A stretch of DNA of 64,000 nucleotides from Squalus acanthias (lineage: Eukaryota), in assembly GCA_030390025.1 (NCBI GenBank), contig CM059427.1, positions 42,160,001 to 42,224,000 on the forward strand, read 5' to 3'. A program made the translations under genes and the position numbers. The notes beneath the pieces are model-generated. The model searched no databases. It saw nothing but the letters and a program-made list of their open reading frames with translations, and was not told the origin of the DNA. The stretch's first letter is position 1, and every line of letters starts with the position of its first letter. Below are positions 2,162 through 64,000 of this stretch, one piece after another.

Positions 2162-2767
2162 CTTTAAAAACAAATGAAATTGACATGATCAAAAATGTCT
2201 CAGCATTCTGCCTTGGACCAGTTATACAGGGGTTTGTTGAATATGTTTCAACATCTTTTCCAACTGTTAACCATTTACTATATTTAGAATAGCAATGAAA
2301 TGAAAGTTAGCACAGCAAAATGTATTACCCTCCCTTCAGCATTGTTTTCCTTACTGATTCTATGGAATTTATCCTCCACATAAATTAGGTTTCAGGCCCA
2401 CTGTTAATGAGAAAAATTGATGGAACAATGCCCTTTTGCTCATTGTAGCCCAAGGGTCTGGTAACCTTACCTTGCTCCTGTGTTGCAAAACAGATTTACC
2501 CGAATCCCTCCTCAGTTTTTCTACCACTGGCAACGACAGAATAAACTCTAGTCATATATTGAAGAAGTAACTCTTGAAATAACATTCTAAGTATTCCAAG
2601 TCATAGAGAGAAAGCAAGGCAGGAGAGAAAGACTGTGTAGAGGATAAATTTCAGACAGGAACAATGAGAAAGACTGTGCTGAAGGTAGGTAGTCTACCAT
2701 CTTGTTCATTTCTCATCATGGACGAGTTTGAACAGCGGTGCCTGTGGGCAATAACTTATGGGATCTT

Positions 2768-3106
2768 ATGACACCCTCAAAGCCTCCTTGAAAAAGTGCA
2801 ACATCCCCACTGACACCTGGGAATCCCTGGCCCAAGACCACACAAAGTGGAGGAGAAGTATCCAGGAAGGCGCCGAACACCTCGAGTCTCTTCGCCGGGA
2901 GCAAGCGGAAGCCAAGCGCAAGCAGCGCACGTCAACCCAAGCACCCCACCCACCCGCCCCTTCAACCACCGTCTGCCCCACCTGTGACAGAGACTGTAGG
3001 TCCCACATTGGACTCATCAGTCACCTGAGAACTCATTTTTAATGTGGAAGCAAGTCATCCTCGGTTCCGAGGGACTGCCTAAGAAGAAGAAGAGGAGAAG
3101 AAGAAG
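2768..3106 (+). mobile_element. RTE-clade LINE 3' fragment
   Basis: DTLKASLKKCNI..WESLAQD..WR..CPTCDRDCRSHIGLISHLRTH C-terminal zinc finger, (AAG)n tail, 10-bp TSD ATGGGATCTT at 2758-2767 and 3107-3116. Confidence 0.88.
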
Positions 3107-3378: not shown

Positions 3379-6300
3379 CAGAGCATTCTGGAGGGGGAGG
3401 GTGAACAGCCAGCTGTCGTGGTGCATATAGGTAAAAAACGGGATGAGGTCCTAAAAGCTGAATATAGGGAGTTAGGAGGTAAATTAAAAAATAGGACCTC
3501 AAAAGGTAGTAATCTCAGGATTGCTACCAATGCCACGTGCTAGTCAGAGTAGAAATAGAAGGATATTTCAGATGAATACGTGGCTAGAGGAATGGTGCAA
3601 GGGGGAGGGATTCAAATTCCTGGGACATTGGAACCGGTTCTGGGAGAGGTGGGACCAGTACAAACTGGACAGTTTGCACCTGGGCAGGACCGGGACCGAT
3701 GTCCTAGGGGGAGTTTTTGCTCGTGCTGTTGGGGAGGGTTTAAACTAAAATGGCAGGGGGTTGGGAACCTGTGCAGGGAAACAGAGGAAAGGGAAGCAAG
3801 GATAGACACAAAAGACAGGAAGGAGAAAAGCAAAAGTGGAAGGCAGAGAAATCAAGGGTGTAAATCAAACAGGGCCACAGTAAATAATAATTCTAAAAGG
3901 ACTAAGAGTGTTAAAAAAACAAGCCTGAAGGCTTTGTGTCTTAATGCGAGGAGCATTCGTAATAAGGTGGATGAATTAGCTGCGCAAATAGATGTAAACG
4001 GATATGATATAATTGGGATTACGGAGACATGGCTCCAGGGTGACCAAGGCTGGGAATTCAATATCCAGGGGTATTCAATATTCAGGAAGGACAGGCAAAA
4101 AGGAAAGGGAGGTGGGGTAGCATTGCTGGTTAAAGAGGCGATTAACACAATAGTAAGGAAGGATATTAGCTCTGATGATGTGGAATCTGTATGGGTAGAG
4201 CTAAGAAATACCAAGGGGCAGAAAACGTTAGTGGGAGTTGTATACAGACCCCCAAACAGTAATGCTGAGGTTGGGGATGGCATTAAATGGGAAATTAGAG
4301 ATGCGTGCAATAAGGGCACAGCATCATCATGGGTGACTTTAATCTACATATAGATTGGGCTAACCAAATTAGTAACAATACTGGGGAGGAGGAATTCCTA
4401 GAGTGTATACGGGATGGTTTCCTGGACCAATATGTCGAGGAACCAACTAGAGATCAGGCCATCTTAGACTGGGTATTATGTAATGAGAAAGGATTGATTA
4501 GCAATTTTGTTGTGCGAGGCCCCTTGGGGAGGAGCGATCATAATATGATCGAATTCTTCATTAAGATGGAGAGTGAAGTAGTTGACTCAGAGACTAGGGT
4601 ACTGAATTTAAATAAAGGAAACTACGATGGTATAAGACGCGAGTTGTCTAGGATGGATTGGGGAATGTTACTTAAAGGGTTGATGGTGGATAGGCAATGG
4701 CAAACATTTAAAGATCGCATGGATGAACTACAGAATTTGTTCATCCCTGTTTGGCATAAAAATAAAACAAAAAAGTTGGCACAACCGTGGCTAACAAGGG
4801 AAATTAGGGATAGCATAAGATCCAAGGAGAGGACATATAAATTGGCCAGAAAAAGCAGCAAACCTGAGGATTGGGAGCAGTTTAGGATTCAGCAAAGGAG
4901 GACAAAAGGATTAATTAAGAGGGGGAAAATAGAGTATGAGAGTAAGCTTGCAGGGAACATAAAAACTGACTGTAAAAGCTTCTATAGATGTGTGAAGAGA
5001 AAAAGATTGGTGAAGTCAAGCGTAGGTCCTTTGCAGTCAGAATCAAGGGAATTTATAATGGGGAACAAAGAAATAGCGGACCAATTAAATACATACTTTG
5101 GTTCTGTCTTCACAAAGGAGGACACAAATAACCTCCCAGAGATGTCAGGGAATATAGGGTCCAATGAGAGGGAGGAACTGAATGAAATCAGTATTTGTAG
5201 GGAAATGGTGTTGGGGAAATTGACAGGATTGAAGGCCGATAAATCCCCAGGGCCTGATAATCTACATCCTAGGGTACTTAAGGAAGTGGCCCTAGAAATA
5301 GTAGATGCATTGCTGGTCATCTTCCAAAATTCTATAGACTCTGGAACAGTTCCCATGGATTGGAGGGTAGCTAATGATACCCCACTATTTAAAAAAGGTG
5401 GTAGAGAGAAAACGGGGAATTATAGACCAGTAAGCCTGACATCGGTAGTGGGGAAAATGCTAGAGTCCATTATAAAAGATGTAGTAGCAGAGCACTTGGA
5501 AAACAGTGACAGGATCGGACAAAGTCAACATGGATTTACAAAAGGGAAATCGTGCTTGACTAATCTACTGGAATTTTTTGAGGATGTAACTGGTAGAATA
5601 GATAAGGGAGAACCAGTGGATGTGGTGTATTTGGACTTTCAGAAGGCTTTCGATAAGGTCCCGCATAAGAGATTAGTGTGCAAAGTTAAAGCACATGGGA
5701 TTGGGGGTAAGGTACTGACTTGGATAGAGAACTGGTTGGCAGACAGGAAGCAAAGAGTTGGAATAAATGGGTCTTTTTCCAAGTGGCAGGCAGTGACTAG
5801 TGGGGTACCGCAGGGATCGGTGCTAGGACCCCAGCTATTCACAATATATATTAATGATCTAGACGAGGGGACTAGATGTAATATCTCCAAGTTTGAAGAC
5901 AACACAAAGCTGGGTGGTTGTGTGTGCTGTGAGGAGGATGCAGAGAAACTCCAGTATGATTTGGACAGGTTGGGTGATTGGGCAGATGCATGGCAGATGC
6001 AGTATAATGTGGATAAATGCGAGATTATCCACTTTGGTGGCAAAAACAGGAAGGCAGATTATTATCTGAACGGCAATAGATTGGGAGAGGGAGAAGTGCA
6101 ACGAGACCTGGGTGTTCTTGTGCACCAGTCGCTGAAGGTAAGCATGCAGGTGCAGCAGGCAGTTAAGAAGGCAAATGGTATGTTGGCCTTCATAGCGAGA
6201 GGATTCGAGTACAGGAGCAAGGATGTCTTGCTGCAGTTGTACAGGGCCTATGTGAGACCACACCTTGAGTATTGTGTGCAGTTTTGGTCACCTTATCTGA

Positions 6301-6821
6301 GGAAGGATGTTCTTGTCATGGAGGGAGTGCAGCGAAGATTCACCAGACTGATACCTGGGATGGCAGGAATGACGTATGAGGATAGATTGGGTCGATTGGG
6401 CTTATATTTGCTGGAGTTTAGAAGAATGAGAGGGGATCTCATTGAAACTTTTAAAATTCTAACAGGACTAGACAGACTAGATGCAGGAAGGATGTTCCCG
6501 ATGGCGGGGGAGTCCAGAACCAGGGGTCACAGTCTAAGGATAAGGGGTGAGTTATTTAGGACAGAGATGAGGAGGAATTTCTTCACCCAGAGTGGTGAAC
6601 CTGTGGAATTCTCTACCACAGAAGGCAGTTGAGGCCAATTCATTAAATATATTCAAGAAGGAGTTAGATATATTTCTTAAGGCTAAAGGGATCAAGCGAT
6701 ATGGGGAGAAAGCAGGGACAGGGTACTGAATTTGGATGATCAGCCATGATCTCATTAAATGGCGGAGCAGGCTCGAGGGGCCGAATGGCCTACTCCTGCT
6801 CCTATCTTCTATGTTACTATG
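3379..6821 (+). mobile_element. Young CR1 LINE, 5'-truncated (ORF1 esterase end, then ORF2 APE endonuclease and RT, frameshift near 4325)
   Basis: ORFs 3580-4353 (LNARSIRNK, GITETWL, GVVYRPP) and 4329-6632 (GDFN, YRPVSLTS, GVPQGSVLGP); CR1 3' stem-loop and TTCTATG tail. Confidence 0.95.
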
Positions 6822-42900: not shown

Positions 42901-42940
42901 TATCATCTACTATGTTCAATTAACAATAAGAAATACTTAC

Positions 42941-43137
42941 TACAAAGCACAATGTCTTCATCAGATCCATCTGCACAATCCTGATAACCATTACACAAGA
43001 AGCTGGAGCTGGTGCAGTTGCCATCATTGCACTGAAACTGTCCAATTCTACAGTAGCGGGTTGGGCAGGTGGTAGGTTCATCTGATCCATCCCTGCAATC
43101 TCTCTGTCCATCACATTTCCACCAGATCGGAACACAC
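42941..43137 (-). CDS. LRP2: LRP2 exon (~55), LDL-A repeats
   Basis: 197 nt, TAG/GTAAG; [24 protein letters not shown]...[12 protein letters not shown]. Confidence 0.95.
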
Positions 43138-43959
43138 CTATGAAGACAAAACAACAAAATTATAGTCTTTATATATGTGCGCAATACATTTAACAGAAGT
43201 ACTGTGATGAAAAATACTACTATAAACTCAATATTTGCAAACATAACTTCACACAATAAGAATGTTGGAAAAATATCATAAGAGGGTAGATCTCGTAAAG
43301 TCCTGCTTCTGGTCCAGCGCCTTTCGCACCTGTGTGCATAAAATAAAATGAATGGACAAAAAATCCTGCCGAGCTCGCTGACCTCCACATCCGAATTCCC
43401 AATATGCAGTCCTGGCATACAAAGCTTCTACAGTACACATCTGTTCTGTGGAGCTACAAGCTTAGATACTATTTGCAAACTCATTGAAAAACATAAGCTG
43501 TTAACATCCTTCATTTCTTTCTCACAAAATATATTAGATGAGATTGCTAAAAAGATATTCATATACTGCAGGAGTGTAGAAGTATTTTGCTGAATTAATT
43601 GACATACATAATGATATGTTATCCTCAGAAGAGGAGTCTGCAGTCAACTGCAGTCTTCCTATACTGCTGGGATGAGAATCTCATCAAATGAATACGCATA
43701 AATAGCTTCATAGTCTTAAGCTATGTATCATACAGTACAATTACCAAATGGAAGCTGAGTTTGACTTTATTGCCATTCACTCAAAGTCAATACAGTAGTT
43801 ACCCTTATATTAAAAATAAAATCATAATTAAATAAAAAGCAACAAAACTGCAAAAGCTGGAAATCTAAAACACAAACAGAAAACGCTGGAAACATAATCA
43901 TCTTTAAATATGAGCTTATGATGTAAAAATCAATAAAAATGCAGCATTAGTTATCGTAC

Positions 43960-44134
43960 CTTTCATTGTCTAGACATCTGTACTGTGTACTTGTGCACAT
44001 GGGGAGACAGTGAGTGATGCTCCCAAACTGCCTCAGGAAGTGATCCGGACATTCACATGTATGGTCTTGGCCACCTGCTGCTATCAGACACAGATGGGAG
44101 CAGCCACCATTATTAGTACCACAGGGATTGTTTG
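43960..44134 (-). CDS. LRP2: LRP2 exon (~54), EGF and start of LDL-A cluster IV
   Basis: 175 nt, CAG/GTACG; [17 protein letters not shown]...[17 protein letters not shown]. Confidence 0.93.
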
Positions 44135-45022
44135 CTGGAAAGAGGAGGGGTATAAAAGTAACTGTTAGTACACAGATATATTTCAATGCACTTATAAGGA
44201 AGCAGCATTGTACAGAGAATACACAATGGCTGGAACTGTGGTGCAAGGCTACATAACAAACAAGAGCAAACGTGAATAGCTTCCATAACTCTAAGCCTTA
44301 AGCTTTTTTGTTTAAATTAAAAAAAGCAGATTTTCAGTTTTCCCTTTGGAGCTTTATTGCTGCGATTCATCTGTCCCTCATGTTTGCTGTGGACTGTCAT
44401 TTTGCTTGACCGTGCTACAGGAAGAAGCTTAACAACATATGACTCTAGACAAAGGATATAATAGGGGCAGCTGTTAGAAGAGAGGGTTTTTCTGAGAAAT
44501 AATGCAGTTTTACAGAAGAACACTTCCATTTGTATCTATAAGGATCACCTGATGTACAACTGTATTGAAATTGACATCTGTTTAAACCAATCAATCAATC
44601 AACAGCATCTGCAGTGTCTGCCAGCGTGGGTCACTGACAGCGATACAAGAATCATCCAAACCATTTCATTCACTTGTGAGGAAAAACAGATTCCTTGTTC
44701 AGGAATCTCTTTTCACTGCCATTCACCATTTTATTGTGAGCTATACAAGTTCAGTCCAGGATAGTATCCTATTTCATATCTACAGCACCAGTATGTGTGG
44801 GCAAAATAGAAAATATTGGGAAAAGTGTCACCAGAAGGAGCAATACCAATATAACATGCATCTTAAGTATCTAAATGTTCCAGAAGATAAATAAAGTCTA
44901 ATGGATATTAAGAAATTAATGTTCAACACAAAAATCATTCCAAAATTTGAGTTGCAGTACAACACAGATAACATGATAAGAAATGTTGTATTTTATGTCA
45001 GTTTCACGGATTATACACTTAC

Positions 45023-45246
45023 CTATTGGCTGTCTGTATGGATGGTATACATGGATGTCAAAAGGCCTGTGGGTGGTATTCACCAACAACACCCTGCCTT
45101 CCCCAGTGTATTTATTTGCTTTCTCCACTGATTTTGTATTCCAATCAGTCCAATATATTGTATCCTCAAACAGGCTAATGGCAAACGGGTGGCTCAGAGT
45201 TCCATCAAATACTGTGTGCCGATGGTTTCCATCCAGGTTGGAAAAT
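45023..45246 (-). CDS. LRP2: LRP2 exon (~53), YWTD propeller end
   Basis: 224 nt, TAG/GTAAG; [36 protein letters not shown]...[10 protein letters not shown]. Confidence 0.95.
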
Positions 45247-45593
45247 CTACAAAACACAATAGCCATTTATGCTTCCATAGCGAGGTCACAATATCAAATA
45301 CAAGCTTGTATCTGAGCACTGGACTTCCAGAGCTCAAGTTCAAATCCAGTCTTGATTATCATTCAAACTCAATTCCTCTCCATGAGAGTTTTGAAGATTT
45401 TTATCTAAATTAGTAGACAGAATTGGTTTATACAGATGTAAATTAGCAGCAAATGTGGAGAAGCATGTGGCTGAGACTATCCTGGTCTTTCAGGAGAAAA
45501 TGACAGCTGTGGGGCTTTACTGAAGGGAAATTAAATACAGCTAGTAAAAAAAAACAAGGGCATAATATATTCCACGATTAATAATTCAATATA

Positions 45594-46136
45594 GGCTCAG
45601 ATTTTCCTGGGAACTTGCGTCATTGCATCTAATCAAACACAGGACTTCATTGACAGTTAACTAGATAAAAGAGGAGTTTGTGGGTAAAGAGCTGCTGGCG
45701 CTGTAGAGCTGGATGAGTTCAGCAGCTTTTGACAGCCCAGTGAGCTATCAATGAAGTGATAGCTTCTATGTAAAATCATAGACCACCAACTGCTTGATCT
45801 TAGGAGCTGTATCATGTGCACAGAATGTGGCAAAGCATTTTAAAACCAGCTCAATAAATAAATTGCCTTAGTTTATGTATTTTAGTCTAATGTTATAGTG
45901 TGTTTTGGAAAAGAATACATTTCTGTAACATTGCTGTTTAATTCAGAGATAAATCACAGTATTAGTGACAGGATCAGTATATTATCCATTGGCTTTGCCA
46001 CTTTGCTTGCTGTGATGCATTCTAATTAGAAAGGCAGGAAAATATGGAGTAAGTTATCAATGGTAAGATTGGCATTATAGACGGCACAATTTACAATCTA
46101 CATCATCCAACTCGCCATTGCAGGAAAATCTGGGCC
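45594..46136. mobile_element. Harbinger-type MITE
   Basis: TIR GGCTCAGATTTTCCTG / CAGGAAAATCTGGGCC (15 of 16 match). Confidence 0.75.
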
Positions 46137-46167
46137 ATTGTTTTTGATTATAAAATGTGCTCTATTA

Positions 46168-48424
46168 CATAGAAACATAGAAGATAGGAGCAGGAGCAGG
46201 CCATTCAGCCCCTCGAGCCTGCTCCGCCATTCAATGAGATCATGGCTGATCATCCAAATTCAGTACCCTGTCCCTGCCTTCTCCCCATATCCCTTTAGCC
46301 TTAAGAAATATATCTAACTCCTTCTTGAATATATTTAATGAATTGGCCTCTACTGCCTTCTGTGGTAGAGAATTCCACAGGTTCACCACTCTCTGGGTGA
46401 AGAAATTCCTCCTCATCTCAGTCCTAAATGGCTTACCCCTTATCCTTAGACTGTGACCCCTGGTTTTGGACTCCCCGGCCATCGGGAACATCCTTCCTGC
46501 ATCTAGTCTGTCAAGTCCTGTTAGAATTTTATAAGTTTCAATGAGATCCCCTCTCATTCTTCTAAACTCCAGCGAGTATAAGCCCAATCGACCCAATCTC
46601 TCCTCATACGTCATTCCTGCCATCCCAGGTATTAGCCTGGTGAATCTTCGCTGCACTCCCTCCATGACAAGAACATCCTTCCTCAGATAAGGCGACCAAA
46701 ACTGCACACAATACTCAAGGTGTGGTCTCACATAGGCCTTGTACAACTGCAGCAAGACATCCTTGTTCCTGTACTCGAACCCTTTTGCTACGAAGGCCAA
46801 CATACCATTTGCTTTCTTAACCGCCTGCTGCACCTGCATGCTTACCTTCAGCAACTGGTGCACAAGGACACCCAGGTCTCATTGCACTTCCCCTTCTCCC
46901 AATCTATTGCCATTCAGATAATAATCTGCCTTCCTGTTTTTGACACCAAAGTGGATAACCTCGCATTTATCCACATTATATTGCATCTGCCATGCTTCTG
47001 CCCAATCACCCAACCTGTCCAAATCATACTGGAGTTTCTCGGCATCCTCCTCATGGCACACACTCCCACCCAGCTTTGTGTCGTCTGCAAGCTTGGAGAT
47101 ATTACATTCAATTCCCTCGTCTAGATCATTAATATATATTGTGAATAGCTGGGGCCCTAGGACCGATCCCTGCAGTACCCCACTAGTCACTGCCTGCCAC
47201 TCGGAGAAAGACCCATTTATTCCAACTCTTTGCTTTCTATCTGCCAACCAGTTCTCTATCCAAGTTAATACCTTGCCCCCAATCCCATGTGCCTTAACTT
47301 TACACGCTAATCTCTTATGCGGGACCTTATCGAAAGCCTTCTGAAAGTCCAAATACACCACATCCACTGGTTCTCCCTTATCTATTTTACCAGTTACATC
47401 CTCAAAAAATTCCAGTAGATTAGTCAAGCACGATTTACCTTTTGTAAATCCATGTTGACTTTGTCCGATCCTGTCACTGTTTTCCAAGTGCTCTGCTATT
47501 ACATCTTTTATAATGGACTCTAGCATTTCCCCCACTACCGATGTCAGGCTTACCGATCTATAATTCCCCGTTTTCTCTCTACCACCTTTTTTGAATAGTG
47601 GGGTAACATTAGCTACCCTCCAATCCATGGGTACTGTTCCAGAGTCTATAGAATTTTGGAAGATCACCAGCAATGCATCTACTATTTCTAGGGCCACTTC
47701 CTTAAGTACCCTAGGATGTAGATTATCAGGCCCTGGGGATTTATCGGCCTTCAATCCCGTCAATTTCCCTAACACTATTTCCCTACAAATACTGATTTCT
47801 TTCAGTTCCTCCCTCTCATTAGACCCTATGTTCCCCGACATCTCTGGGAGGTTATTTGTGTCCTCCTTTGTGAAGACAGAACCAAAGTATGTATTTAATT
47901 GGTCTGCCATTTCTTTGTTCCCCATTATAAATTCCCCTGATTCTGACTGCAAGGTACCTACGCTTGACTTCAGCAATCTTTTTCTCTCCACATATCTATA
48001 AAAGCTTTTACAGTCAGTTTTTATGTTCCTGCAAGCTTACTCTCATACTCTATTTTCCCCCTCTTAATTAATCCCTTTGTCCTTCTTTGCTGAATCCTTT
48101 ACTGCTCCCAATCCTCAGATTTTCTGCTTTTTCTGGCCAATTTATATGTCCTCTCCTTGGATCTTATGCTATCCCTAATTTCCTTTGTTAGCCACGTTTG
48201 AGTCACCTTTTTTGTTTTATTTTTATGCCAAACTGGGATGAACAAATTCTGTAGTTCATTCATGCGATCTTTGAATGTTTGCCATTGCCTATCCACCGTC
48301 AACCCTTTGAGTGACATTCCCCAATCAATCCTACCCAACTCACACCTCATACCATCGTAGTTTCCTTTATTTAAATTCAGGACCCTAGTCTCTGAGTCAA
48401 CTACTTCACTCTCCATCTTAATGA
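46168..48424 (-). mobile_element. Young CR1 LINE, 5'-truncated, same subfamily as 3379-6821
   Basis: ORF2 pieces 48099-48416, 46879-47991 and 46240-46863 nearly identical to the plus-strand copy. Confidence 0.95.
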
Positions 48425-48517
48425 GTTGTACCTATAGCAACTAACACTTTATGCAATAAAACTGGAATTAGACAAAATGGTTTGCATTTCATTATTCAAA
48501 ACTTCAGAAGTGCTTAC

Positions 48518-48688
48518 TCAATGTAATTCAGGTGAGCATCAGTCCAATAGAGTTTATCGTTTGTGTAGTCAATGGTCAATCCATTGGGCCATTCCAATTT
48601 TGTGGTAATAATGGCTGATTTGTTTTTACCATCCATGCCCATGCGACCAATGTATGCTTGATAACCCCAGTCAGTCCAGAAAATATAT
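48518..48688 (-). CDS. LRP2: LRP2 exon (~52), YWTD propeller
   Basis: 171 nt, CAG/GTAAG; [20 protein letters not shown]...[25 protein letters not shown]. Confidence 0.95.
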
Positions 48689-49207
48689 CTGCAAAAAGTT
48701 TTAAAAACTGAAATATATAAATGATATTAAAGTCTCTAACAAGTCAAATTCTATTTTGTCAAATTGCTGTGTGCAGCATGACAGAATTTCAATCAGCTCA
48801 ATAACATAAGAACATTTTCTGTTACAAATAAAGGCTGTTGCTCATCAAGTTGGAATCTGATCAGGGAGCTTTTTTTAAATCTTGTAACAGTGTAAGACTC
48901 CATTCTCAATTTGTGAAGGCCATTTCAATGCATGGTTCATAAATTCACAGCAGGAAGATGGGCTCAGTATATCTCAGATCATTTTGATTGGTCACGTTCA
49001 TCACGAACACCTACATCAATAATGCAGTATTTATTCAATTTACAGTGTTGGCTTTATCTCTGTTAACTAAAGATAATTGTGATGAAAGTTGCAGCAATGA
49101 AGCCTGTCTGGCATGTTTACATAATGTTAGGTGCACTATCAAAAGAGAAAAGTTTGCTTCAGGATGGCAATTACATTTAAAAAAAAACTTTCCTTCTTAT
49201 ACATTCG

Positions 49208-49966
49208 GGCCTGGAGTTTCCGCTCGATTGAGCTTGTTTTCTCGGCGCAATTTGTCCGATATTGGCGTAACCAGCGCCAAAGATCGTGCAATTTTAAGCG
49301 CATATTGCATTCAACGCAACTCGTGTTTCCGCGATCTTTTGCGCTAGTTTTAAAAACATTGCGCTAGAAGCAGGCCCCGCCCACAAAGGTGGCCATGCCC
49401 CCAGGGTGAATTAATCACCATAGGGAGTTTCCACTAATTCCGCTTGTTGGTAGGCCTTTGAGGAAGCTCCAAAAATTAAGCTGGATTTTTTGGGTGCAAG
49501 GATACTAATAGGTACATTTTGAAAGGATTTGAATGAACTTTTTTTTTAACATTTACTAAGAAACAGATTACTGCACTCCAATCTAACTGGAAAATAGTTT
49601 TGTATAATTTTAAAAAGTCATTTTCAGTCATTTAAAAATCAGGTTACTCACAGGTGGTGGATTGACACTAATTTAAAATGCTTATGTTTTATGATAAACC
49701 CATTTTTAGCTGTATTAATCAAACTTTGCCAAGTAACCACTCTTAAATATATCAAGGAATTATTTTTACAGCAAAAATTAAAAAAAAAGAAAATTACGTT
49801 TTAAAATGGTGCCCAATTGCGCTGGTTCATGGCAGATGTTGCGTTCAGCAATATGCAAATGAGTTTGAGCAGAAACCGGGGGGGGGGAAACACCTTTCAA
49901 AACGGGCACAATATTGGGCGTAATTTGTGTCCGAATTGCCGATTGCACCCAAAGCAACTCTACCCC
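49208..49966. mobile_element. Harbinger-type MITE
   Basis: GGCCTGGAGTTTC / GCAACTCTACCCC imperfect TIRs, TSD TCG/TTG; split homolog at 30001-34710. Confidence 0.72.
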
Positions 49967-50013
49967 TTGGTGTTTTTCTTATAAACCTGGTAAATAATTT
50001 AAGGTCCTCTTAC

Positions 50014-50166
50014 CCATATTTAGGATAAACAGCAATAGCTCGCGGGTTCTCAAAGCAGTAGATATTGCCTGTATCCACACAGTGGTCAGCCAGCTTTTTA
50101 CGGAACCTTCCATCAAGTTCAGCAACATTAAGACAATTTTTAAAATGATCAAGCCAGTACAGTTTC
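50014..50166 (-). CDS. LRP2: LRP2 exon (~51), YWTD propeller
   Basis: 153 nt, TAG/GTAAG; [25 protein letters not shown]...[14 protein letters not shown]. Confidence 0.93.
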
Positions 50167-50247
50167 CTAAAAAATCAAAAAAAGACTCAATTAACTCACA
50201 CAAAAGAAATTATTCAGTCTTTTCCAACAGTAGTCCATGTATAGTAA

Positions 50248-50390
50248 GTTTGGATATATACTTAAAAAGGAAAAAAATTGCAGGGTTATGGGGAAAGAGC
50301 AGGGGAGTGGGACTAATTGGTAGCTCTTTCAGAGAGCCAGCACAGCCACAATGGACCGAATGGCCTCCGGTGCTGTATGATCCTATGATA
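50248..50390 (+). mobile_element. CR1 3' tail fragment
   Basis: TTGGATATATACTTAAAAAGG...GGACCGAATGGCCTCC...TCCTATGA. Confidence 0.7.
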
Positions 50391-51754
50391 ATGAATTAGT
50401 ATGTAATGCTGAGAAGAGACTGACCTTGCACAACAGCAGGTAATTATCTAGATTATACAAGAAACATCTTTTTGAAAATTAAAAATGTAAGAGAGTTGGC
50501 ATGGTGCAACTTAATCTGCTTTTGGCCAAGCCCATTTACCATAATCTTGACTATTCCTACTACACCCCACCAAAAATCAATACCACCGCTAACAATATTT
50601 CAACTCCCTCCAAGGCAAGGACAAGTCATCCTTTTAACAAAAGTAAGAAAAGAAATATCCAGCTTAGTTACAAAATACAGGAGAAGGACCAAATCAAATC
50701 TGCACTGGTTCACTCATTCCACTGCTTGGCTACACCCACTGATACCTACAAGCAGGTAATGCTTTAAGAAATGTTTCACTTAATTAAGAGTGCGCATTTT
50801 GGTGGCAACACTGCAACCGTGTTAAATTCTTCGTCATGATTCTAAAATAATTGCGCCTGCATGCTTTTGTGAATTCACAGTCGCTTCCAGACCATGTTTC
50901 GAATTTTAGGGTAAAGTCAGTGATCCCATGCTCTAAGTGGAGAGCCACACTCAAAAGGAACAAGGGCAAGAAAACAGGCATGATGGTAGCCCTATCTCCA
51001 ATTTGTGCTCCCCACAACCATGATTCACTCACGGGAGTCCAGAATCAGTTGAATTTATCTTTTTATTTCTAGCTGTGGACCTTCACCAAGATCAGAAAGT
51101 TTCATGTAAGCCAGCAATGTACAGACCACGTTTGGTGGCTTCAACCCACTCTCGGTCAGAACAAAATGGGAGCCCGCAGCATCCAGCACTCGGGCCTCAC
51201 TATTAATGGTAACTACTACCTCTATGTCATCTTCAAATATTTAGATTTTCTTTACTGTTTTATTTATTTTGGGTTGAATTCCATTGAATCTTTCTCCTTT
51301 AAAAAGAATTTAAGCACTTTCCTCAAGAATATCTAAACATTTCAAAACATAAATCTGTTCCTTCGGACAGGTATTACAAAGGTTGCACCAACTCAGTAAC
51401 CCATCTCAGAGAAAACTGAATCAATGTCCAGTAACAATAAAACAACTTCACAACCAAACAGTGGCTTCACTCACCATGGAATCTAAAAAGTAATATAACA
51501 TTTTAATGAGATTTTGTTCTGATGAAGTAATCTTAACTGACTGAATAGTGCCTGTCATATTCATTTGAGATAGAGAGAGAGACAACAAAATGTCATTGAT
51601 AATCTTTACTTACTCCAGATATTGGGCAAATGACAAATGCTTTAATCCCTAAAAGTCTGGATTAAACTAAAATGAATTATTACTAGTTCTGATTTTATTG
51701 TGCAGTAGTTTGAAAATAATAAAAAGCATAGACCTCCAAGTAGTGTTACCTTAC

Positions 51755-52271
51755 CTTCCAACCCAGTCAACAGCCAGGCCCTCTGCACCTGGTAGATCAT
51801 GGTTAATGACAGTCTCCTTTTTGGTCCCATTCAGGAACATTCGCTCAATAATTTTTCGGCCCAAGTCAATCCAGTACAACCTTTGCTCGACTCTGTCAAA
51901 GTCCAATGCCACCACATTGATCAACCCTTGTTGAACAAGAGTGTAAAATACCCCATCAACAGAGAGATTACGTATGTAGTAGCGATTACTGAAGAGGAGA
52001 TAAGGGGTAATATTGCTGTTTTGGCGACAACTTTTTCCGTCAGGTTCCCGAAGATGTCCTGGGGCACATTTGCAGATATAGGAACCCTCTGTGTTTTCAC
52101 AAATCTGGCTGCAAACACTTGGTGTTACATTGCATTCATCAAGGTCTTCACAAGTCTGTCCATCATCCATGAGATGGTAGCCAGGGTGACAAGAGCAGAA
52201 GAAACTGGTCAATGTGTTGGTGCAACTGTGTGTACAGTGATTGAGTGCAGGATCACTGCATTCGTCAACAC
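51755..52271 (-). CDS. LRP2: LRP2 exon (~50), EGF repeats and start of YWTD propeller
   Basis: 517 nt, CAG/GTAAG; [17 protein letters not shown]...[15 protein letters not shown]...[11 protein letters not shown]. Confidence 0.95.
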
Positions 52272-52419
52272 CTGTCGCAACATAATAAGAAAAGGCAAAA
52301 TTAACCATGTCACGAGTCACAGGCCAAATGGCTTATTACACGTATTTACTGTTCTTATGAAACAGAGGAGCAAACAAAATTCAAAGGTAAATGTTACTTT
52401 AGTTATGAGGAGAGACGAG

Positions 52420-52800
52420 AGAAACTGATGTTCTTTTCATTTGAAGAAAGAAGGTTAAAAGGAGTTCTGGTAAAAGTGTTCAAATTTATGGGGGGCTAGA
52501 TAGGTAAATCAGGAAAAACTATGTCCACTGCTTGGTGAGTAGATATCCAGAGGGCATAAGTTTAAGATCATCACCAAAAAAATGAAGAGGTTAGGAGGAT
52601 TTTTTTTTCCCCACACAGAAGGTTGTTAGGACACATTGAGGGAAGCAGAATCCATAATAGCTTTTTAGATGGAAGTGGATAAATATTTGTAAATGGGAAA
52701 AGGGCAGGGACTGAGACTAAGTGGATTACTCTTTCAGAGAGATGGTACTGGCACAATGGGATGGATGGCTGTGCTGTAAAATACCACGTATTTCCATGGT
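52420..52800 (+). mobile_element. Old CR1 3' fragment
   Basis: Degenerate FSFEERRLKG..., RGHKFKI, FFPTQKVV motifs. Confidence 0.65.
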
Positions 52801-53264
52801 TTCTGGTCTGTATTGCTTTGATATGTAGTACATTTTCCTGTTTGTGGGACTTTGAGAGAAAAATGACTACTACGTTCACCAATATAACAACATTTCAGTA
52901 ATTTATTCTACGTGAAATGCTTTGGAATGTTCCGAGAGGTGTGGTAAGACACTATAAATGCTTTGTTCCCCTTTCTCTCTGTTACATTTTGCCCCTTCAT
53001 GGACATATGCGTTCTCCATTTCTGTCTGTCTGCCTCTTCCTCTCTCGCTTTTTTGTCGGCCTTCTTTTTCATAGACTTTTTCTCTCTTTTCTAACCCCTC
53101 TTCCAATCAGCCAACACAAAGAAAAGATGCTTGCAGTGTTTCAATTCTTGGTAGCCATCTCTTCCTATATTGTTACCCAACATATGTTGTACTGGTGTGC
53201 AAGTTGTTCCCAGCAAACTGTCTAGTATTATACTTCAGCTGTGCACATATAGCCTGATCTTTTG

Positions 53265-53520
53265 TAGGGAATTCAGAAGAAATTTGTTTACCCAGAGAGT
53301 GGTGAGAATGTGGAACTCGCTGCCACAGGGAGTGGCTGAAGCGAATAGTATAGATGCAGTTAAGGGGAGGCTAGATATGCATATGAGGGAGAAGAGACTA
53401 GAGGGTTATGTTGATAGAGTTAGATGAGGAAAGACAGGAGGAGGTTCGAGTGGAGCATAAACGGACTGGTTGGGCCGAATGGCCTGTTTCTGTGCTATAT
53501 CTCCTATGTAATCCTATGTA
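53265..53520 (+). mobile_element. CR1 3' fragment (same subfamily as 29400-29795)
   Basis: REFRRNLFTQRVVRMWNSLPQG and 3' tail. Confidence 0.85.
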
Positions 53521-54975: not shown

Positions 54976-55035
54976 TTCATGCTGATGAGCAGCAGGTTCA
55001 CAAATCAAAAAAAGTTCTTAAAACTGAATACATAC

Positions 55036-57383: not shown

Positions 57384-60300
57384 CATAGAAGCATAGAAGA
57401 TAGGAGCAGGAGTAGGCCATTCGGCCCCTCGAGCCTGCTCCGCCATTTAATGAGATCATGGCTGATCATTCAAATTCAGTACCCTGTCCCTGCCTTCTCC
57501 CCATATCCCTTTAGCCTTAAGAAATATATCTATCTCCTTCTTGAATATATTTAATGAATTGGCCTCAACTGCCTTCTGTGGTAGAGAATTCCACAGGTTC
57601 ACCACTCTCTGGGTGAAGAAATTCCTCCTCATCTCAGTCCTAAATGGCTTACCCCTTATCCTTAGACTGTGACCTATGGTTCTGGACTCCCCCGCCATCG
57701 GGAACATCCTTCCTGCATCTAGCCTGTCTAGTCCTGTTAGAATTTTATAAGTTTCAATGAGATCCCCTCTCATTCTTCTAAACTCTAGCGAATATAAGCC
57801 TAATCGACCCAATCTCTCTTCATACGTCATTCCTGCCATCCCAGGTATCAGTCTGGTAAATCTTCGCTGCACTCCCTCCATGGCAACAACATCCTTCCTC
57901 AGATAAGGTGACCAAAACTGCACACAATACTCAAGGTGTGGTCTCCCACCAAGGCCTTTTACAACTGCAGCAAGACATCCTTGCTCCTGTACTCGAATCC
58001 TCTAGCTATGAAGGCCAACATACCATTTGCCTTCTTAACCGCCTGCTGCACCTGCATGCTTACCTTCAGCAACTGGTGCACAAGGACTCCCAGATCTCGT
58101 TCCACTTCCCCTTTTCCCAATCTATTGCCGTTCAGATAATAATCTGTCTTCCTGTTTTTGCCACCAAAGTGGATAACCTCGCATTTATCCACATTATACT
58201 GCATCTGCCATGCATCTGCCCAATCACCCAACCTGTCCAAATCATACTGGAGCTTCTCTGCATCCTCCTCACAGCACAAACGCCCACCCAGCTTTGTGTC
58301 GTCTGCAAACTTGGAGATATTACATCTAGTCCCCTCGTCTAGATCATTAATATATATTGTGAATAGCTGGGGTCCTAGCACGATCCCTGCGGTACCCCAC
58401 TAGTCACTGCCTGCCACTCGGAAAAAGACCCGTTTATTCCAACTCTTTGCTTCCTGTCTGCCAACCAGTTCTCTATCCAAATCAGTACCTTACCCCCAAT
58501 CCCATGTGCTTTAACTTTGCACGCTAATCTCTTATGCGGGCCCTTATCAAAAGCCTTCTGAAAGTCCAAATACACCACATCCACTGTTTCTCCCTTATCT
58601 ATCCTACCAGTTACATCCTCAAAAAATTCCAGTAGATTAGTCAGGCATGATTTCCCTTTTGTAAATCCATGTTGACTTTGTCCGATCCTGTCACTGTTTT
58701 CCAAGTGCTCTGCTATTACATCTTTTATAATGGACTCCAGCATTTTCCCCACTACCGATGTCAGGCTTACCGGTCTATAATTCCCTGTTTTTTCTCTACC
58801 ACCTTTTTTAAATAGTGGGGTAACATTAGCTACCCTCCAATCCATGGGAACTGTTCCAGAGTCGATAGAATTTTGAAAGATGACCAGCAATGCATCGACT
58901 ATTTCTAGGGCCACTTCCTTAAGTACCCTAGGATGTAGATTATCAGGCCCTGGGGATTTATCGGCCTTCAATCCCATCAATTTCCCCAACACCATTTCCC
59001 TACAAATACTGATTTCATTCAGTTCCTCCCTCTCATTAGACCCTATGTTCCCCGACATCTCTGGGAGTTTATTTGTGTCCTCCTTTGCAAAGACAGAACC
59101 AAAGTATGTATTTAATTGGTCTGCCATTTCTTTGTTCCCCATTATAAATTCCCCTGATTCTGACTGCAAGGGACCTATGCTTGACTTCACCAAACTTTTT
59201 CTCTTCACATATCTATAGAAGCTTTTACAGTCAGTTTTTATGTTCCCTGCAAGCTTACTCTCATATTCTATTTTCCCCCTCTTAATTAATCCCTTTGACC
59301 TCCTTTGCTGAATCCTAAACTGCTCCCAATCCTCAGGTTTGCTGCTTTTTCTGGCCAATTTATATGTCCTCCACTTGGATCTTATGCTATCCCTAATTTC
59401 CCTTGTTAGCCACGGTTGAATCACCTTTTTTGTTTTATTTTTATGCCAAACAGGGATGAACAAACTCTGTCGTTCATCCATGCGATCTTTAAATGTTTGC
59501 CATTGCCTATCCACCCTCAACCCTTTAAGTAGTGCTCCCCAATCTATCCTAGCCAATTCGCACCTCATACCATCGTAGTTTCCTTTATTTAAATTCAGGA
59601 CCCTAGTCTCCGAGTCAACTACTTCACTCTCCATCTTAATGAAGAATTCTATCATATTATGATCGCTCCTCCCCAAGGGGCCTCGCACAACAAGATTGCT
59701 AATTAATCCTTTCTCATTACATAATACCCAGTCTCAGATGGCCTGATCTCTAGTTGGTTCTTCGACATATTGGTCCAGGAAACCATCCCGTATACACTCT
59801 AGGAATTCCTCCTCCACAGTATTGTTAATAATTTGGTTAGCCCAATCCTGATGTAGATTAAAGTCACCCATAATAACTGCTGTACTCTTATCGCATGCGT
59901 CTCTAATTTCCCGTTTAATGCCATCCCCAACCTCAGCATTACTGTTTGGGGGTCTGTATACAACTCCCACTAACATTTTCTGCCCCATGGTATTTCTCAG
60001 CTCTACCCATACAGATTCCACATCATCAGAGCTAATATCCTTCCTTACTATTGTGTTAATCTCCTCTTTAACCAGCAATGCTACCCCATCTCCTTTTCCT
60101 TTTTGTCTGTCCTTCCTGAATATTGAATACCCCTGGATGTTGAATTCCCAGCCTTGGTCACCCTGGAGCCATGTCTCCGTAATCCCAATTATATCATATC
60201 CGTTTACATCTATTTGCGCAGCTAATTCATCCACCTTATTACGAATGCTCCTCGCATTAAGACACAAAGCCTTCAGGCTTGTTTTTTTAACACTCTTAGT

Positions 60301-61476
60301 CCTTTTAGAATTATTATTTAATGTAGCCCTGTTTGATTTACACCCTTGATTTCTCTGCCTTCCACTTTTGCTTTTCTCCTTCCTGTCTTTTGCTTCTATC
60401 CTTGTTTCCCTTTCCTCTGTTTCCCTGCACAGGTTCCCAACCCCCTGCCATTTTAGTTTAAATCCTCCCCAACAGCACGAGCAAACACTCCCCCTAGGAC
60501 ATCGGTCCCGGTCCTGCCCAGGTGCAAACCGTCCAGTTTGTACTGGTCCCACCTCCCCCAGAACCGGTTCCAATATCCCAGGAATTTGAATCCCTCCCCC
60601 TTGCACCATTCCTCTAGCCACATATTCATCTGAAATATCCTTCTATTTCTACTCTGACTAGCACGTGGCACTGGTAGCAATCCTGTGATTACTACCTTTG
60701 AGGTCCTATTTTTAAATTTACCTCCTAACTCCCTATATTCAGCTTTTAGGACCTCATCCCGTTTTTTACCTATATCGTTGGTACCTATATGCACCACGAC
60801 AACTGGCTGTTCACCCTCCCCCTCCAGAATGCCCTGTAGCCACTCCGAGACATCCTTGACCCTTGCACCAGCGAAGCAACATACCATCCTGGAGTCTTGT
60901 TTGCGGCTGCAGAAACGCCTATCTATTCCCCTTACAATAGAATCCCCTATCACTATAGCTCTCCCGCTCTTTTTCCTCCCGTCCTGTGCAGCAGAACCAC
61001 CCATGGTGCCAGGAAGTTGGCTGCTGCTGCCTTCCCCCGATAAGCCATCTCCCTCAACAATATCCAAAGTGGTATATCTGTTTGAGAGGGGGATGTCCAC
61101 AGGGGACCCCTGCACTACCTGCCTGCACCTACTACTCTGCCTGGTGGTCACCCATTCCCTTTCTGCCTGTGCAGCCTTTACCTGCGGTGTGACCAACACC
61201 CTAAACGTGCTATCCACGATGTCCTCAGCATCGCGAATGCTCCAGTATGCATCCATTCGCAGCTCCAGCACCGCAATGCGGTCTGCCAGTTGCTGCAGCT
61301 GGATACACTTCCCGCACTCATGGTCAACAGGGACACAGGAAGTGTCCCTGATTTCCCACATAGTGCAGGAGGAGCATGCCACGGGGCTGAGCTGTGCTGC
61401 CATGACTTACCCTTTAATTAATTTAAATTAACTCAAGTCAATACCACAAATTACACTACAATTAAATGATATACTT
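57384..61476 (-). mobile_element. Young near-full-length CR1 LINE nested in an older CR1
   Basis: Intact ORF1, ORF2 in frameshifted pieces (59734-60621, 58375-59688, 57959-58381, 57456-57923), 3' tail at 57384. Confidence 0.95.
60453..61403 (-). CDS. CR1 ORF1p: Cys4 zinc finger/coiled coil plus SGNH esterase, uninterrupted 316 aa
   Basis: CSSC..CGKC, heptad leucines, GDSIVR, HIGTND, DGLH motifs. Confidence 0.85.
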   Translation of the reverse strand: MAAQLSPVACSSCTMWEIRDTSCVPVDHECGKCIQLQQLADRIAVLELRMDAYWSIRDAEDIVDSTFRVLVTPQVKAAQAEREWVTTRQSSRCRQVVQGSPVDIPLSNRYTTLDIVEGDGLSGEGSSSQLPGTMGGSAAQDGRKKSGRAIVIGDSIVRGIDRRFCSRKQDSRMVCCFAGARVKDVSEWLQGILEGEGEQPVVVVHIGTNDIGKKRDEVLKAEYRELGGKFKNRTSKVVITGLLPVPRASQSRNRRIFQMNMWLEEWCKGEGFKFLGYWNRFWGRWDQYKLDGLHLGRTGTDVLGGVFARAVGEDLN

Positions 61477-64000
61477 GACCCCACCCCTCCTCTTACTACC
61501 CGTTTACTATTTATATGCCTATAGAAGACTTTTGGATTCCCTTTTATGTTAGCTGCTAATCTATTCTCATACTCTCTCTTTGCCTCTCTTATTTCCTTCT
61601 TTACTTCCCCTCTGAACTTTCTATATTCAGCCTGGTTCTCACTTGTATTCTCAACCTGACATCTGTCATACGCGCCCTTTTTCTGCTTCATCTTACTCTC
61701 TATCTCTTTCATCGTCCAGGGAGCTCTGGCTTTGGTTGCCATATCTTTCCCCTCGTGGGAATGTACCTCGACTGTACCTGAACCATCTCCTCTTTAAAGG
61801 CAGCCCAATGTTTGATTACAGTTTTGCCTGCCAATCTTTGATTTAAATTTACCTGGGCCAGATCCGTTCTCAACCCACTGAAATTAGCCTTATTCTAGAT
61901 TGCTCCCTGTCCTTTTCTATAGCTAGTCTAAACCTTATGATACTGTGATCATTGTTCCCTAAATGTTCCCCTCCTGACACTTGCTCTACTTGATCCACCT
62001 CATTCCCCAGAACCAGATCCAGCAATGCCTCCTTCCTCGTTGGGCCGGAAACATACTGATTAAGAAAGTTCTCCTGAACACACTTCAGAAATTCTTCCCC
62101 CTCTCTGCCCTTTACACTATTACTATCCCAGTCTATATTAGGATAGTTGAAGTCCCCCATTATCACTACTCTATAGTTCTTGCACCTCTCTGTAATTTCC
62201 CTGCAAATTTGCTCCTCTATATCCTTCCCACTAGTTGACGGCCTATAGAATACACCTAGTAGTGTAATGGCACCTCTATTGTTTCTCAACTCTAAGCAAA
62301 TAGATTCTGTTCTTGACCCTTCCAGGACATCCTCTCTCTCCAGCACTGTAATATTCTCCTTAAATCAATACTGCCACCCCACCTCCTTTCTTTCCTTCCC
62401 TATCTTTCCTAAACACCTTATAGCCAGGAATATTTAGTACCCAATCCTGCCCTTTTGAGAGCAAGGTCTCCGTTATTGCCACAACATCATATTCCCATGT
62501 GGCTATTTGCGCCTGCAGCTCACCAACCTTATTTACCACGCTTCATGCATTCACACATGCACTGTAAACCTAACTTAGACCTTCTTGTATTCTCTCTTAG
62601 TCTGACCCCACCTAGTACCGTACTATTTCTTACTCTAGTGCTAGCTGTCTCTCCCAAACCTTTGTGCACCTTGTTTCTCCTTTCTAATGCTACATCCTGG
62701 TGCCCATCCCCCAGCCAAATGAGTTTAAACCCTCCCCAACAGCACCCCGCCCCCACGAGGACATTGGTCCCAGCTCTGTTGAAGTGCAACCCGTCCGGCC
62801 TGTACAGGTCCCACCTCCCCCAGAACCGGTCCCAATGTCCCAGGAATCTAAAGCCCTCCCTCCTGCACCATCTCTCCAGCCATGCATTCATCTGCTCTAT
62901 CCTCCTATTTCTATACTCACTAGCTCGTGGCATCGGGAGTAATCCGGAGATTACTACCTTTGAGGTCCTGCTTTTTAATCCCTTTCCGAGCTCCCTAAAA
63001 TCTGCCTGCACCTCCTTTCTCATCCCTCTTTCTACCTGTGTCATTGATACCGAGATGGACCACGACCTCTGGCTGTTCATCCTCCCCCCTCAGAATAATA
63101 CTACCGTTGAAAGGGTAAAGAAACCAGATGATTTCAGGCATCAGGAATTGAAGTTATGAGGAAAGGTTAAGCAAGTTGGACTTTCTCTTTGGGGAAAAAA
63201 ACATTGTGCTGATCGAATTGAAGATTTTAGGATTATGTAAAGGACTGGCAAAGCTGATCCAGGCAAATTTTTTGGTGTGGTGTGCGGTCCAAATACCAGG
63301 GAATATCTTAAAAATTAGGAAGTTAAAAGGGAACGCAGAAAGAGTATTTTTAATAAAGCATAAGACTAATTATCTGCCAAAGAATGCCATTGAAATAAAC
63401 AGCATTTATAGTTCAAACAGCAGTTTGATCTGAAGATAGAAAGGACTGAGGAATGCAATGAGCTGATGAATAGGTGGGTTTGAGAGCTGCCAGAAAGGCT
63501 TGTTTGGACTAATGGTTATTTCTTGTTCCTAAAAATTCTTATGCTCTTAATTGACATAACACTACTGAATCTGTGCTCCCAGTTTGGTTACATTGGTTAC
63601 ACAAGTTATTGGACACTCACTAAGGTACACACTCAGGATTAGTGTTCAGATTCAAATTATCCAAAGCAGAATTGGTGTTGATCCAAAGTATGCATAAATA
63701 AGACTAATACTTGAGCGGAGATGATTTGCATTAGATCATTGGGGAATTAAAAATGTACCATTACTAAACCACTGAAGAATTCATAGATGTATAGCTATCA
63801 AAACAAAAGACCTCCCCAAAAAAATGGGTACAAATCACTGGACTTTCTTGAGAAAGTGATCGATCATCAATAACTCCACTGCAAATAAGCACTACGAACA
63901 AATCATCTTTAAAGATTTTCCCCTAACTGCAACTAATTGTGGAAATTCAAGCTACAAAGTTGCATTGGGGATGCATCTATTGAATCACTCCTTTGTATAT

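What the first reader, a model, noticed from the sequence alone, without database searches (positions are those of the whole stretch)
3739..3775. Coronavirus-type -1 frameshift signal (U_UUA_AAC plus stem) joining CR1 ORF1 to ORF2
Seen: ORF1 ends GGT TTA AAC TAA, so the heptamer T TTA AAC (3739-3745) is in the X_XXY_YYZ phase directly before the stop. The -1 frame (TTT AAA CTA AAA TGG = FKLKW) is ORF2, and it runs into the endonuclease (LKALCLNARS) with no ATG in between. The ATG in TAAAATG is in the +1 frame, so it cannot start ORF2 by stop-restart coupling. After a 7-nt spacer lies a stem GCAGG-GGGTTGGGAA-CCTGT in a G-run-rich context. The same arrangement is at 60456-60462 (minus strand). 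Established: UUUAAAC with a 5-9 nt spacer and a downstream structure is the classic -1 programmed frameshift cassette, whereas studied LINEs (L1, SART1) use reinitiation or coupling. Inference: these CR1s may make a gag-pol-like esterase-EN-RT fusion. I do not know of a demonstration of this for CR1 but could not search the literature. Caveats: an in-frame ATG at 3592 inside the overlap is an alternative ORF2 start, and the stem is short.
Basis: partly seen in the sequence, partly recalled or inferred. Interest (0 to 1): 0.75.

Follow-up and report, generated by a model that had tools for sequence, protein, structure and literature searches.

The report
Conserved frameshift site in CR1 LINEs
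A common jumping gene (CR1) in this likely shark genome, like its distant vertebrate relatives, ends its first gene with the same seven-letter slippery sequence and has its second gene one base back, so ribosomes likely slip there to make one fused protein, as retroviruses do.

Summary
U_UUA_AAC sits in ORF1 phase just before the stop at 3739-3745, at 60462-60456 and in a third, diverged copy (62729-62723). ORF2 (endonuclease-RT) is in the -1 frame, with no ATG before the endonuclease in copies 1 and 2.

The heptamer is in all 9 related loci that reach the junction (ORF1 24-35% identical). It is also at 17 junctions in a published consensus library. In 7 aligned elements, TTA and AAC are the only single-codon columns among 16 invariant ORF1 residues.

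The upstream ATG (3592) is not a general start: a -1-frame stop cuts it off in 91-100% of family depth in four runs, and no other locus has one.

A GGGGG run exactly 10 nt after the heptamer is (11 of 11).

Best reading: programmed -1 frameshifting gives an esterase-EN-RT fusion (about 0.78; untested). Rival: stop-reinitiation, since some lineages have an ATG next to the stop.

Ten literature searches found no CR1 report; a review states -1 frameshifting for Dictyostelium TRE elements. This scan noted the idea twice before on other DNA.

The parts
3379..3748 (+). 3' part of ORF1 (SGNH esterase end) of CR1 copy 1; 5'-truncated, and with a frame break near 3503
   Evidence: tblastn of the copy-2 ORF1, two pieces in frames 1 and 2
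3592..3594 (+). -1-frame ATG formed by the ORF1 codons GAA TGG (Glu-Trp); not a conserved ORF2 start
   Evidence: cut off by a stop in most family depth
3721..3723 (+). -1-frame codon TCG in both window copies; at the matching place of copy 2 it reads TAG (stop) in 91-100% of family depth in four runs
   Evidence: variant at 60479, classified
3739..3745 (+). Slippery heptamer U_UUA_AAC in ORF1 phase (predicted -1 shift site)
   Evidence: 12 of 12 invariant
3746..3748 (+). ORF1 stop codon directly after the heptamer
   Evidence: TAA or TAG in 10 of 12 junctions
3753..3774 (+).
   Evidence: -10 kcal/mol; -6.5 with the read variant at 60429
3756..3765 (+). Conserved G-rich element GGGGG-NN-GGG starting 10 nt after the heptamer (candidate stimulator)
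   Evidence: GGGGG in 11 of 11 with no gap; second G tract in 9-10 of 11
3739..6749 (+). ORF2 in the -1 frame: linker of about 65 codons, APE endonuclease, RT; broken near 4320 and near 6600 in this copy
   Evidence: Pfam PF03372, PF14529, PF00078
6806..6821 (+). 3' terminal octamer-like repeat of copy 1
   Evidence: likeness to the CR1 tail is recalled
60453..61403 (-). Intact ORF1 of copy 2 (316 aa; N-terminal Cys motif, long helix, SGNH esterase)
60456..60462 (-). Heptamer of copy 2, followed by TAA (60455-60453) and GGGGG (60445-60441)
57456..60462 (-). ORF2 of copy 2 in the -1 frame; premature stop near 59734 and later breaks
62723..62729 (-). Heptamer of copy 3 (older subfamily, degraded; TCA in place of the stop; GGGGG at the same spacing)

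Best explanation
This is the ORF1/ORF2 junction of an esterase-type CR1 LINE, and ORF2 is most likely made by programmed -1 ribosomal frameshifting at the conserved U_UUA_AAC just before the ORF1 stop. Most ribosomes would stop at UAA and release the 316-aa ORF1p. A minority would slip back one base on the Leu and Asn codons and read on (L-K-W-Q-G...) through a roughly 65-aa basic linker into the endonuclease and RT. The predicted product is a fusion of about 1,320 aa, at a set ratio as in retroviral Gag-Pol. The stimulator is probably not the small hairpin but the G-rich element 10 nt downstream, acting either as a protein-binding linear motif or as a two-tier G-quadruplex. Shown: the sequence, its phase, the -1 frame, the lack of an AUG, conservation at nucleotide level and the fixed G-run. 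Inferred: slippage, the fusion protein and the role of the G-run.
For: (1) The heptamer is invariant in 12 of 12 DNA junctions (3 window copies, 9 metagenome loci); no column in the 45 nt upstream exceeds 11 of 12. The loci were found by upstream protein patterns, not by the motif. (2) Synonymous control, 7 elements with ORF1 24-71% identical: of 16 invariant-residue columns in the last 140 ORF1 codons only TTA and AAC use a single codon; in the endonuclease 1 of 15 does. The chance of T-TTA-AAC from each element's own codon usage is 0.003-0.055. (3) Proteins: 46 of 65 homologues end in LN. The residue before LN is K/Q/E/M/W (no T-ending codon) in 1 of 89 distinct tails, against 39 of 89 one position earlier. 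In a tree built without the tail, the branch holding the named vertebrate proteins has 61 of 64 LN ends, and a neighbouring 9-row branch has none. (4) There is no usable AUG. The -1 frame is closed 1-5 codons upstream in 7 of 9 loci and is open for 37 codons without ATG in the other 2. TAG lies 6 codons upstream in 91-100% of family depth in 4 of 4 runs. L001 and copies 1 and 2 have no Met before the endonuclease. (5) 17 of 23 hits for TTTAAACTA in the PMC13343379 consensus table lie at ORF1/ORF2 junctions. (6) Distant esterases end in GN (10 distinct tails, 9 preceded by Q, compatible with G_GGA_AAC) and one in SKN. U_UUA_AAC, G_GGA_AAC and A_AAA_AAC are named among the shiftiest heptamers (PMC5009743). 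(7) The LN end lies past the last helix with pLDDT under 50.
Against: There are no translation data. No strong 3' structure is conserved at the usual 5-9 nt spacing: 14-96% of each element's own windows fold as stably. An in-frame ATG next to the stop exists in some lineages: TAG-NN-ATG in 4 of 9 loci (L002, L003, L004, L012) and TAATG in 3 library consensus sequences, so reinitiation is possible there. Both window copies keep the -1 frame open back to ATG 3592. The G-run is missing or shifted in several gap-prone library consensus sequences. The GN and KN readings rest on protein only; no DNA was found. The low K/Q/E/M/W count also occurs at helix positions -6, -7, -9 and -10 (4-7 of 89), so that test alone is not decisive. 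The junctions are related by descent and are not independent. Studied LINEs (L1, SART1) use reinitiation or coupling.
Confidence: 0.78

Rival explanations
1. Termination-reinitiation, as in SART1 or L1: ribosomes stop at UAA/UAG and restart a few bases on in the -1 frame, at an AUG where there is one and at a non-AUG codon elsewhere. ORF2p is then a separate protein.
For: TAATG in the ORF2 frame in ScyCan_CR1-1a, SquAca_CR1-17a and SquAca_CR1-6c. TAG-NN-ATG in 4 of 9 loci. Reviews give coupling for SART1 with a downstream element, unconventional reinitiation for L1, and tolerance of start-codon changes in caliciviruses.
Against: The ATGs lie at two different positions (codon 4 and codon 5). 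They are absent from all 3 window copies and from L001, L010, L011, L013 and L026. This model does not explain why three synonymous positions spell a slippery heptamer. The two mechanisms could coexist in lineages that have an AUG.
Confidence: 0.13
2. The motif is conserved for another reason (a protein end, a DNA or RNA cis-element such as a TATA-like or splice-like signal, or a termination context), and the match to a slippery site is incidental.
For: GTTTAAAC is a palindrome and TTTAAA resembles a TATA box (my reading). TTTAAACTA also occurs in the 5' region of 2 library consensus sequences (SquAca_CR1-18 and -3).
Against: A protein constraint would allow synonymous codons, which are not seen, and the LN end is predicted to be unstructured. 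A 3' splice AG is absent where the stop is TAA. No recurrent joint at the junction appears among the 15 joints shown (12 more hidden). Any such model still leaves ORF2 without a start in this family.
Confidence: 0.06
3. ORF2 starts at the in-frame ATG at 3592 inside ORF1 (internal entry or a shorter RNA).
For: The -1 frame is open from 3559 in both window copies, with an ATG 49 codons upstream.
Against: The ATG is a by-product of the Glu-Trp codons of ORF1. A stop lies between it and ORF2 in 91-100% of family depth. None of the 9 other loci has an upstream in-frame ATG.
Confidence: 0.03

Closest known systems
Vertebrate CR1 LINEs with esterase ORF1 (PMC13343379 library; structural relative ZfL2-1 ORF1p esterase, PDB 4c1b)
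   Same: Esterase ORF1 (E 4.9e-39 to 4c1b), APE plus RT ORF2, and a junction that reads almost the same as ScyCan_CR1-1a and PriPec_CR1-7.
   Different: The paper's main text has no occurrence of 'frameshift', 'overlap', 'translation' or 'slippery'. How ORF2 is translated is not addressed in the passages seen.
-1 frameshifting at X_XXY_YYZ heptamers (retroviral gag-pol, coronavirus 1a/1b)
   Same: One of the shiftiest heptamers, at the end of a gag-like ORF, with the enzyme ORF in the -1 frame (PMC5009743).
   Different: No conserved stem or pseudoknot at 5-9 nt. There is a G-run at 10 nt instead. The host is a non-LTR element.
Dictyostelium TRE5-A and TRE3-A (APE-type non-LTR elements)
   Same: A review figure legend states that both require a -1 frameshift for ORF2 translation (PMC5911963).
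   Different: A different clade and host. Their shift site and any experimental support were not seen; the primary papers were not read.
Protein-stimulated frameshifting of arteriviruses and cardioviruses
   Same: A 3' stimulator at a long spacing (11-14 nt, or 12-15 nt), which can be linear RNA bound by a trans-acting factor.
   Different: The CR1 element is G-rich, its spacer is 10 nt, and no binding factor is known; the likeness is in spacing only.
SART1 UAAUG coupling and L1 reinitiation
   Same: A bicistronic LINE RNA in which ORF2 translation depends on ORF1 translation.
   Different: They give a separate ORF2p. This family has no in-frame AUG at the stop, although some CR1 lineages do.

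Membership tests
CR1 LINE (esterase type) | ORF1 with an SGNH esterase | tested here: met
   PF13472 E 7e-13; 4c1b E 4.9e-39
CR1 LINE (esterase type) | ORF2 with APE endonuclease and RT | tested here: met
   PF03372, PF14529, PF00078
CR1 LINE (esterase type) | Placement with elements classified as CR1 | tested here: inconclusive
   The junction matches library entries labelled LINE/CR1 by eye, and the esterase tree places it among named shark proteins; no RT tree against reference CR1 sequences was built
CR1 LINE (esterase type) | 3' octamer repeat tail | tested here: met
   Octamer-like repeats end copies 1 and 2; the CR1 tail consensus is recalled
Programmed -1 frameshift site | X_XXY_YYZ heptamer in the zero-frame phase with the downstream ORF in -1 | tested here: met
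Programmed -1 frameshift site | Conservation at nucleotide level beyond the protein | tested here: met
Programmed -1 frameshift site | Measured -1 product that depends on the heptamer | not testable with these tools
   needs a reporter, ribosome profiling or mass spectrometry
Coronavirus/retrovirus-type cassette | Conserved stem or pseudoknot 5-9 nt downstream | tested here: not met
   The hairpin is in 2 of 11 junctions folded; no excess stability; no conserved partner; no Rfam match above a gathering score
G-quadruplex-stimulated frameshift | A G-quadruplex 3' of the shift site | tested here: inconclusive
   G4Hunter score in the top 3% of element windows in 10 of 11 (best of 5 offsets, so biased upward), but a quadruplex is in the predicted fold in only 3 of 11
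SART1-type stop-start coupling | AUG overlapping the stop in the ORF2 frame | tested here: not met
   The ATG is in the +1 frame in this family; the feature is met in 3 other library consensus sequences

The most novel reading that the evidence does not exclude
-1 frameshifting is the ancestral way that esterase-type CR1 LINEs make ORF2, across jawed vertebrates and in distant lineages that have swapped among U_UUA_AAC, G_GGA_AAC and A_AAA_AAC. It is driven by a new kind of stimulator, a G-rich linear or quadruplex element 10 nt downstream. CR1 would then integrate with a Gag-Pol-like esterase-endonuclease-RT polyprotein.
Probability: 0.3. Interest if true: 0.85.

Novelty: new variant of a known kind. 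Interest (0 to 1): 0.7.

Why it matters
How LINEs translate ORF2 is called an open question in a review (PMC3894237), and the studied cases (L1, SART1) use reinitiation. CR1-group elements are described as the dominant retrotransposons of most vertebrates (PMC13343379 abstract). If the reading is right, CR1 uses the Gag-Pol strategy: ORF2p carries the lipid-binding esterase at its N-terminus, and the ratio of ORF1p to fusion protein is set by slippage. ORF2 annotations that begin at the first Met would then be wrong. The site would also be a deeply conserved vertebrate -1 site with an unusual stimulator; the 2016 review knew no natural G-quadruplex-stimulated case. A cassette of about 100 nt makes it directly testable.

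Tried and rejected
No whole genome is held for this window. Four scans of viral contigs gave nothing. The genome-contig scan gave 2 loci, neither informative. The plasmid search with a GN-ending protein found no match, so there is no DNA for the GN group. Of 44 metagenome loci, 35 were not counted: bird-like loci that end or diverge before the junction, distant or bacterial-looking SGNH frames with no endonuclease hit downstream and no heptamer at the end, and short upstream matches.

No long-range partner for the G-run recurs at a matching place; the 3' UTR match in copies 1 and 2 is not repeated in L003 or L012. Rfam gave one sub-threshold match.

Searches for natural fusions found gene models that cross from ORF1 into ORF2 at ..GG-FKL or ..EG-FKL (P0209, P0040). 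These are probably decayed copies or annotation corrections and are not counted as support. Long ORF2 homologues start at scattered Mets 5-80 residues before the endonuclease motif where it was found; these are gene-caller starts, so they are weak evidence.

The read pile-up showed no variant inside 60452-60462 among the 40 rows displayed, but 138 rows were hidden, so this is not counted. The one RNA-labelled run laid is a guess and says nothing about expression. Searches of the library for synonymous variants showed none at a CR1 junction, but only the first 4 hits per term were seen; one further junction with the heptamer followed by TG turned up (ScyCan_CR1-13). The tree is the quick one; the careful search did not finish. 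The look-up of earlier findings by sequence gave nothing.

Full report
Setting. The window carries several CR1-like copies between exons with LDL-receptor and EGF-like repeats (my reading, not scanned). The nearest named ORF1 homologues are from the sawshark Pristiophorus japonicus at 71-73%, so the host is probably a cartilaginous fish. Copy 1 (about 3379-6821, +) is 5'-truncated and broken. Copy 2 (about 61480-57380, -) has an intact 316-aa ORF1 and a broken ORF2, and appears nested in an older copy 3. Pfam gives an SGNH esterase for ORF1 and an APE endonuclease plus RT for ORF2. The esterase matches the ZfL2-1 ORF1p structure 4c1b at E 4.9e-39.

Observation. In the window alone the motif is only mildly enriched (4 matches against 0.88 expected).

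Conservation in DNA. A scan with upstream esterase patterns returned 44 metagenome loci. Nine reach the end of a vertebrate-type ORF1, and all nine have TTTAAAC there. Eight are followed by TAG and one, degraded, by AAG. The -1 frame starts FKL in eight (FKQ in L026) and has an endonuclease hit in the six loci long and intact enough. The other 35 are accounted for under Tried and rejected. L001 is 95.7% identical over its last 70 residues to a protein named Acipenser sinensis (record flagged as unverified). Most of the others best match a swallow protein at 53-67%, so 'bird-like' is my label. In an ungapped stack of 12 junctions the 7 heptamer columns are 12 of 12, and no column in the 45 nt upstream is. 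In 7 elements with an open ORF1 end (pairwise identity 24-71%, at least three deep lineages), 16 residues are invariant in the last 140 codons, and only the final TTA and AAC use one codon; in the endonuclease 1 of 15 does. In the consensus table of PMC13343379, 17 of 23 hits for TTTAAACTA lie at junctions by eye: 16 labelled CR1 and 1 labelled Crack. Their codes I read as alligator, crocodile, bowfin, bullfrog, coelacanth, elephant shark, rays and sharks. That search was by the motif, so it shows spread and not frequency.

Conservation in protein. 46 of 65 homologues end in LN; of the other 19, one ends IN, one GN, and the rest are cut short, broken or chimeric. In the named vertebrate proteins LN comes nearly always 21 residues after the DGLHL motif; they include snake, lizards, turtles, swallow, Xenopus and coelacanth. 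The residue before LN varies over 13 types but is K, Q, E, M or W in only 1 of 89 tails, against 39 and 29 at the next two positions. Helix positions -6, -7, -9 and -10 are also low (4-7), so this test supports the claim but does not prove it. AlphaFold puts the last three residues past the final helix at pLDDT under 50. In a quick tree of 125 esterase domains built without the tail (tails of 15-40 residues only), the branch with the named vertebrate proteins has 61 of 64 LN ends and a neighbouring 9-row branch has none. A distant, unnamed 51-row group mixes 17 LN, 9 GN and 25 other ends, one of them SKN. Nine of 10 distinct GN tails have Q before GN, which fits CAG GGA AAC. No DNA confirms this.

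No usable start codon. The ATG at 3592 is the A of a Glu codon plus the TG of a conserved Trp codon. Contigs of four coded runs laid on copy 2 show a variant at 60479 in 95%, 91%, 95% and about 100% of depth, which turns the -1-frame codon six before the heptamer into TAG. These runs may be other species, depth is not copy number, and both window copies carry the open form. In the nine other loci the -1 frame is closed 1-5 codons upstream (seven) or is open for 37 codons without ATG (two). Downstream, copy 1 has no Met in 204 codons, and the first Met of copy 2 is codon 159, after the NARS (69) and ITETW (94) endonuclease motifs. L001 has no Met before NARS. Against this, four loci have TAG-NN-ATG and three library entries have TAATG in the ORF2 frame.

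The stimulator. A variant at 60429, in 56%, 56%, 62% and 35% of depth, lowers it to -6.5. The 60 nt downstream are no more stable than usual for each element (14-96% of windows are as stable). What is invariant is GGGGG at heptamer +11 to +15 in 11 of 11 junctions, with no gap, including two wobble positions of the -1 frame. GGGGG starts at only 0.2-0.6% of positions in these elements. A second G tract follows in 9-10 of 11. G4Hunter is high, but a quadruplex enters the predicted fold in only 3 of 11. No conserved distant partner was found. The 2016 review describes long-spaced, linear, protein-bound stimulators and synthetic G-quadruplex stimulation. Which of these applies, if any, is not determined.

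Mechanism. The most likely is tandem -1 slippage of the Leu and Asn tRNAs on U_UUA_AAC, giving an ORF1p-linker-EN-RT fusion of about 316 plus 1,000 residues beside an excess of free ORF1p. Confidence is 0.78; reinitiation is 0.13, another cis role 0.06 and the upstream ATG 0.03.

Literature. Searches returned no paper. The listings of searches showed none on CR1 frameshifting. I read term-search passages of PMC13343379 (plus cut supplement cells), PMC5009743 (first 300,000 of 449,034 characters held; no 'CR1'), PMC3905857, PMC2881922, PMC5911963, PMC5006619, PMC5972666, PMC4120745 and PMC5408684, and parts 1-2 of 3 of PMC3894237. The one LINE precedent seen is the statement on Dictyostelium TRE5-A and TRE3-A, a lead taken from an earlier scan note. 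Older subscription papers on CR1 were not available and may mention a frameshift. Two earlier notes of this scan reached the same idea on other DNA; they are not independent evidence.

Verdict. This is a real, deeply conserved signal: a known mechanism in a host clade where I found no report of it, with an atypical 3' element. It is a new variant of a known kind; interest 0.7.

Noticed in passing
window 61480-57380 (-) within 63096-55941 (-): CR1 copy 2 appears inserted into the ORF2 of the older copy 3, whose RT resumes at 57380.
   Followed up: partly
window 2720-3050 (+): The 3' end of another LINE with a GAA-repeat tail (RTE-like, recalled) lies just upstream of copy 1.
   Followed up: no
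window 3750 onward (+): The +1-frame ATG after the ORF1 stop opens a short ORF of about 37 codons (read by eye); a read variant at 60451 removes this ATG in 16% and 36% of depth in two runs and is synonymous in the -1 frame.
   Followed up: partly
proteins P0063, P0112, P0117, P0120, P0123, P0129, P0164, P0165, P0203, P0150: Unnamed distant esterase ORF1s end in (Q)GN or SKN, compatible with the slippery heptamers G_GGA_AAC and A_AAA_AAC; no DNA was obtained.
   Followed up: partly
PMC13343379 table, SquAca_CR1-18 and SquAca_CR1-3: TTTAAACTA also occurs in the 5' region upstream of ORF1 in these two consensus sequences.
   Followed up: no
PMC13343379 table, AldAff_Crack-2: An entry labelled Crack has an esterase-like end with the same heptamer and stop.
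   Followed up: no
proteins P0007 and P0061: CR1 ORF1 homologues filed under Pseudomonas aeruginosa and Protopolystoma xenopodis are probably vertebrate contamination.
   Followed up: no
window 42903-55400: Exons with LDL-receptor and EGF-like repeats of a large LRP-type host gene.
   Followed up: no
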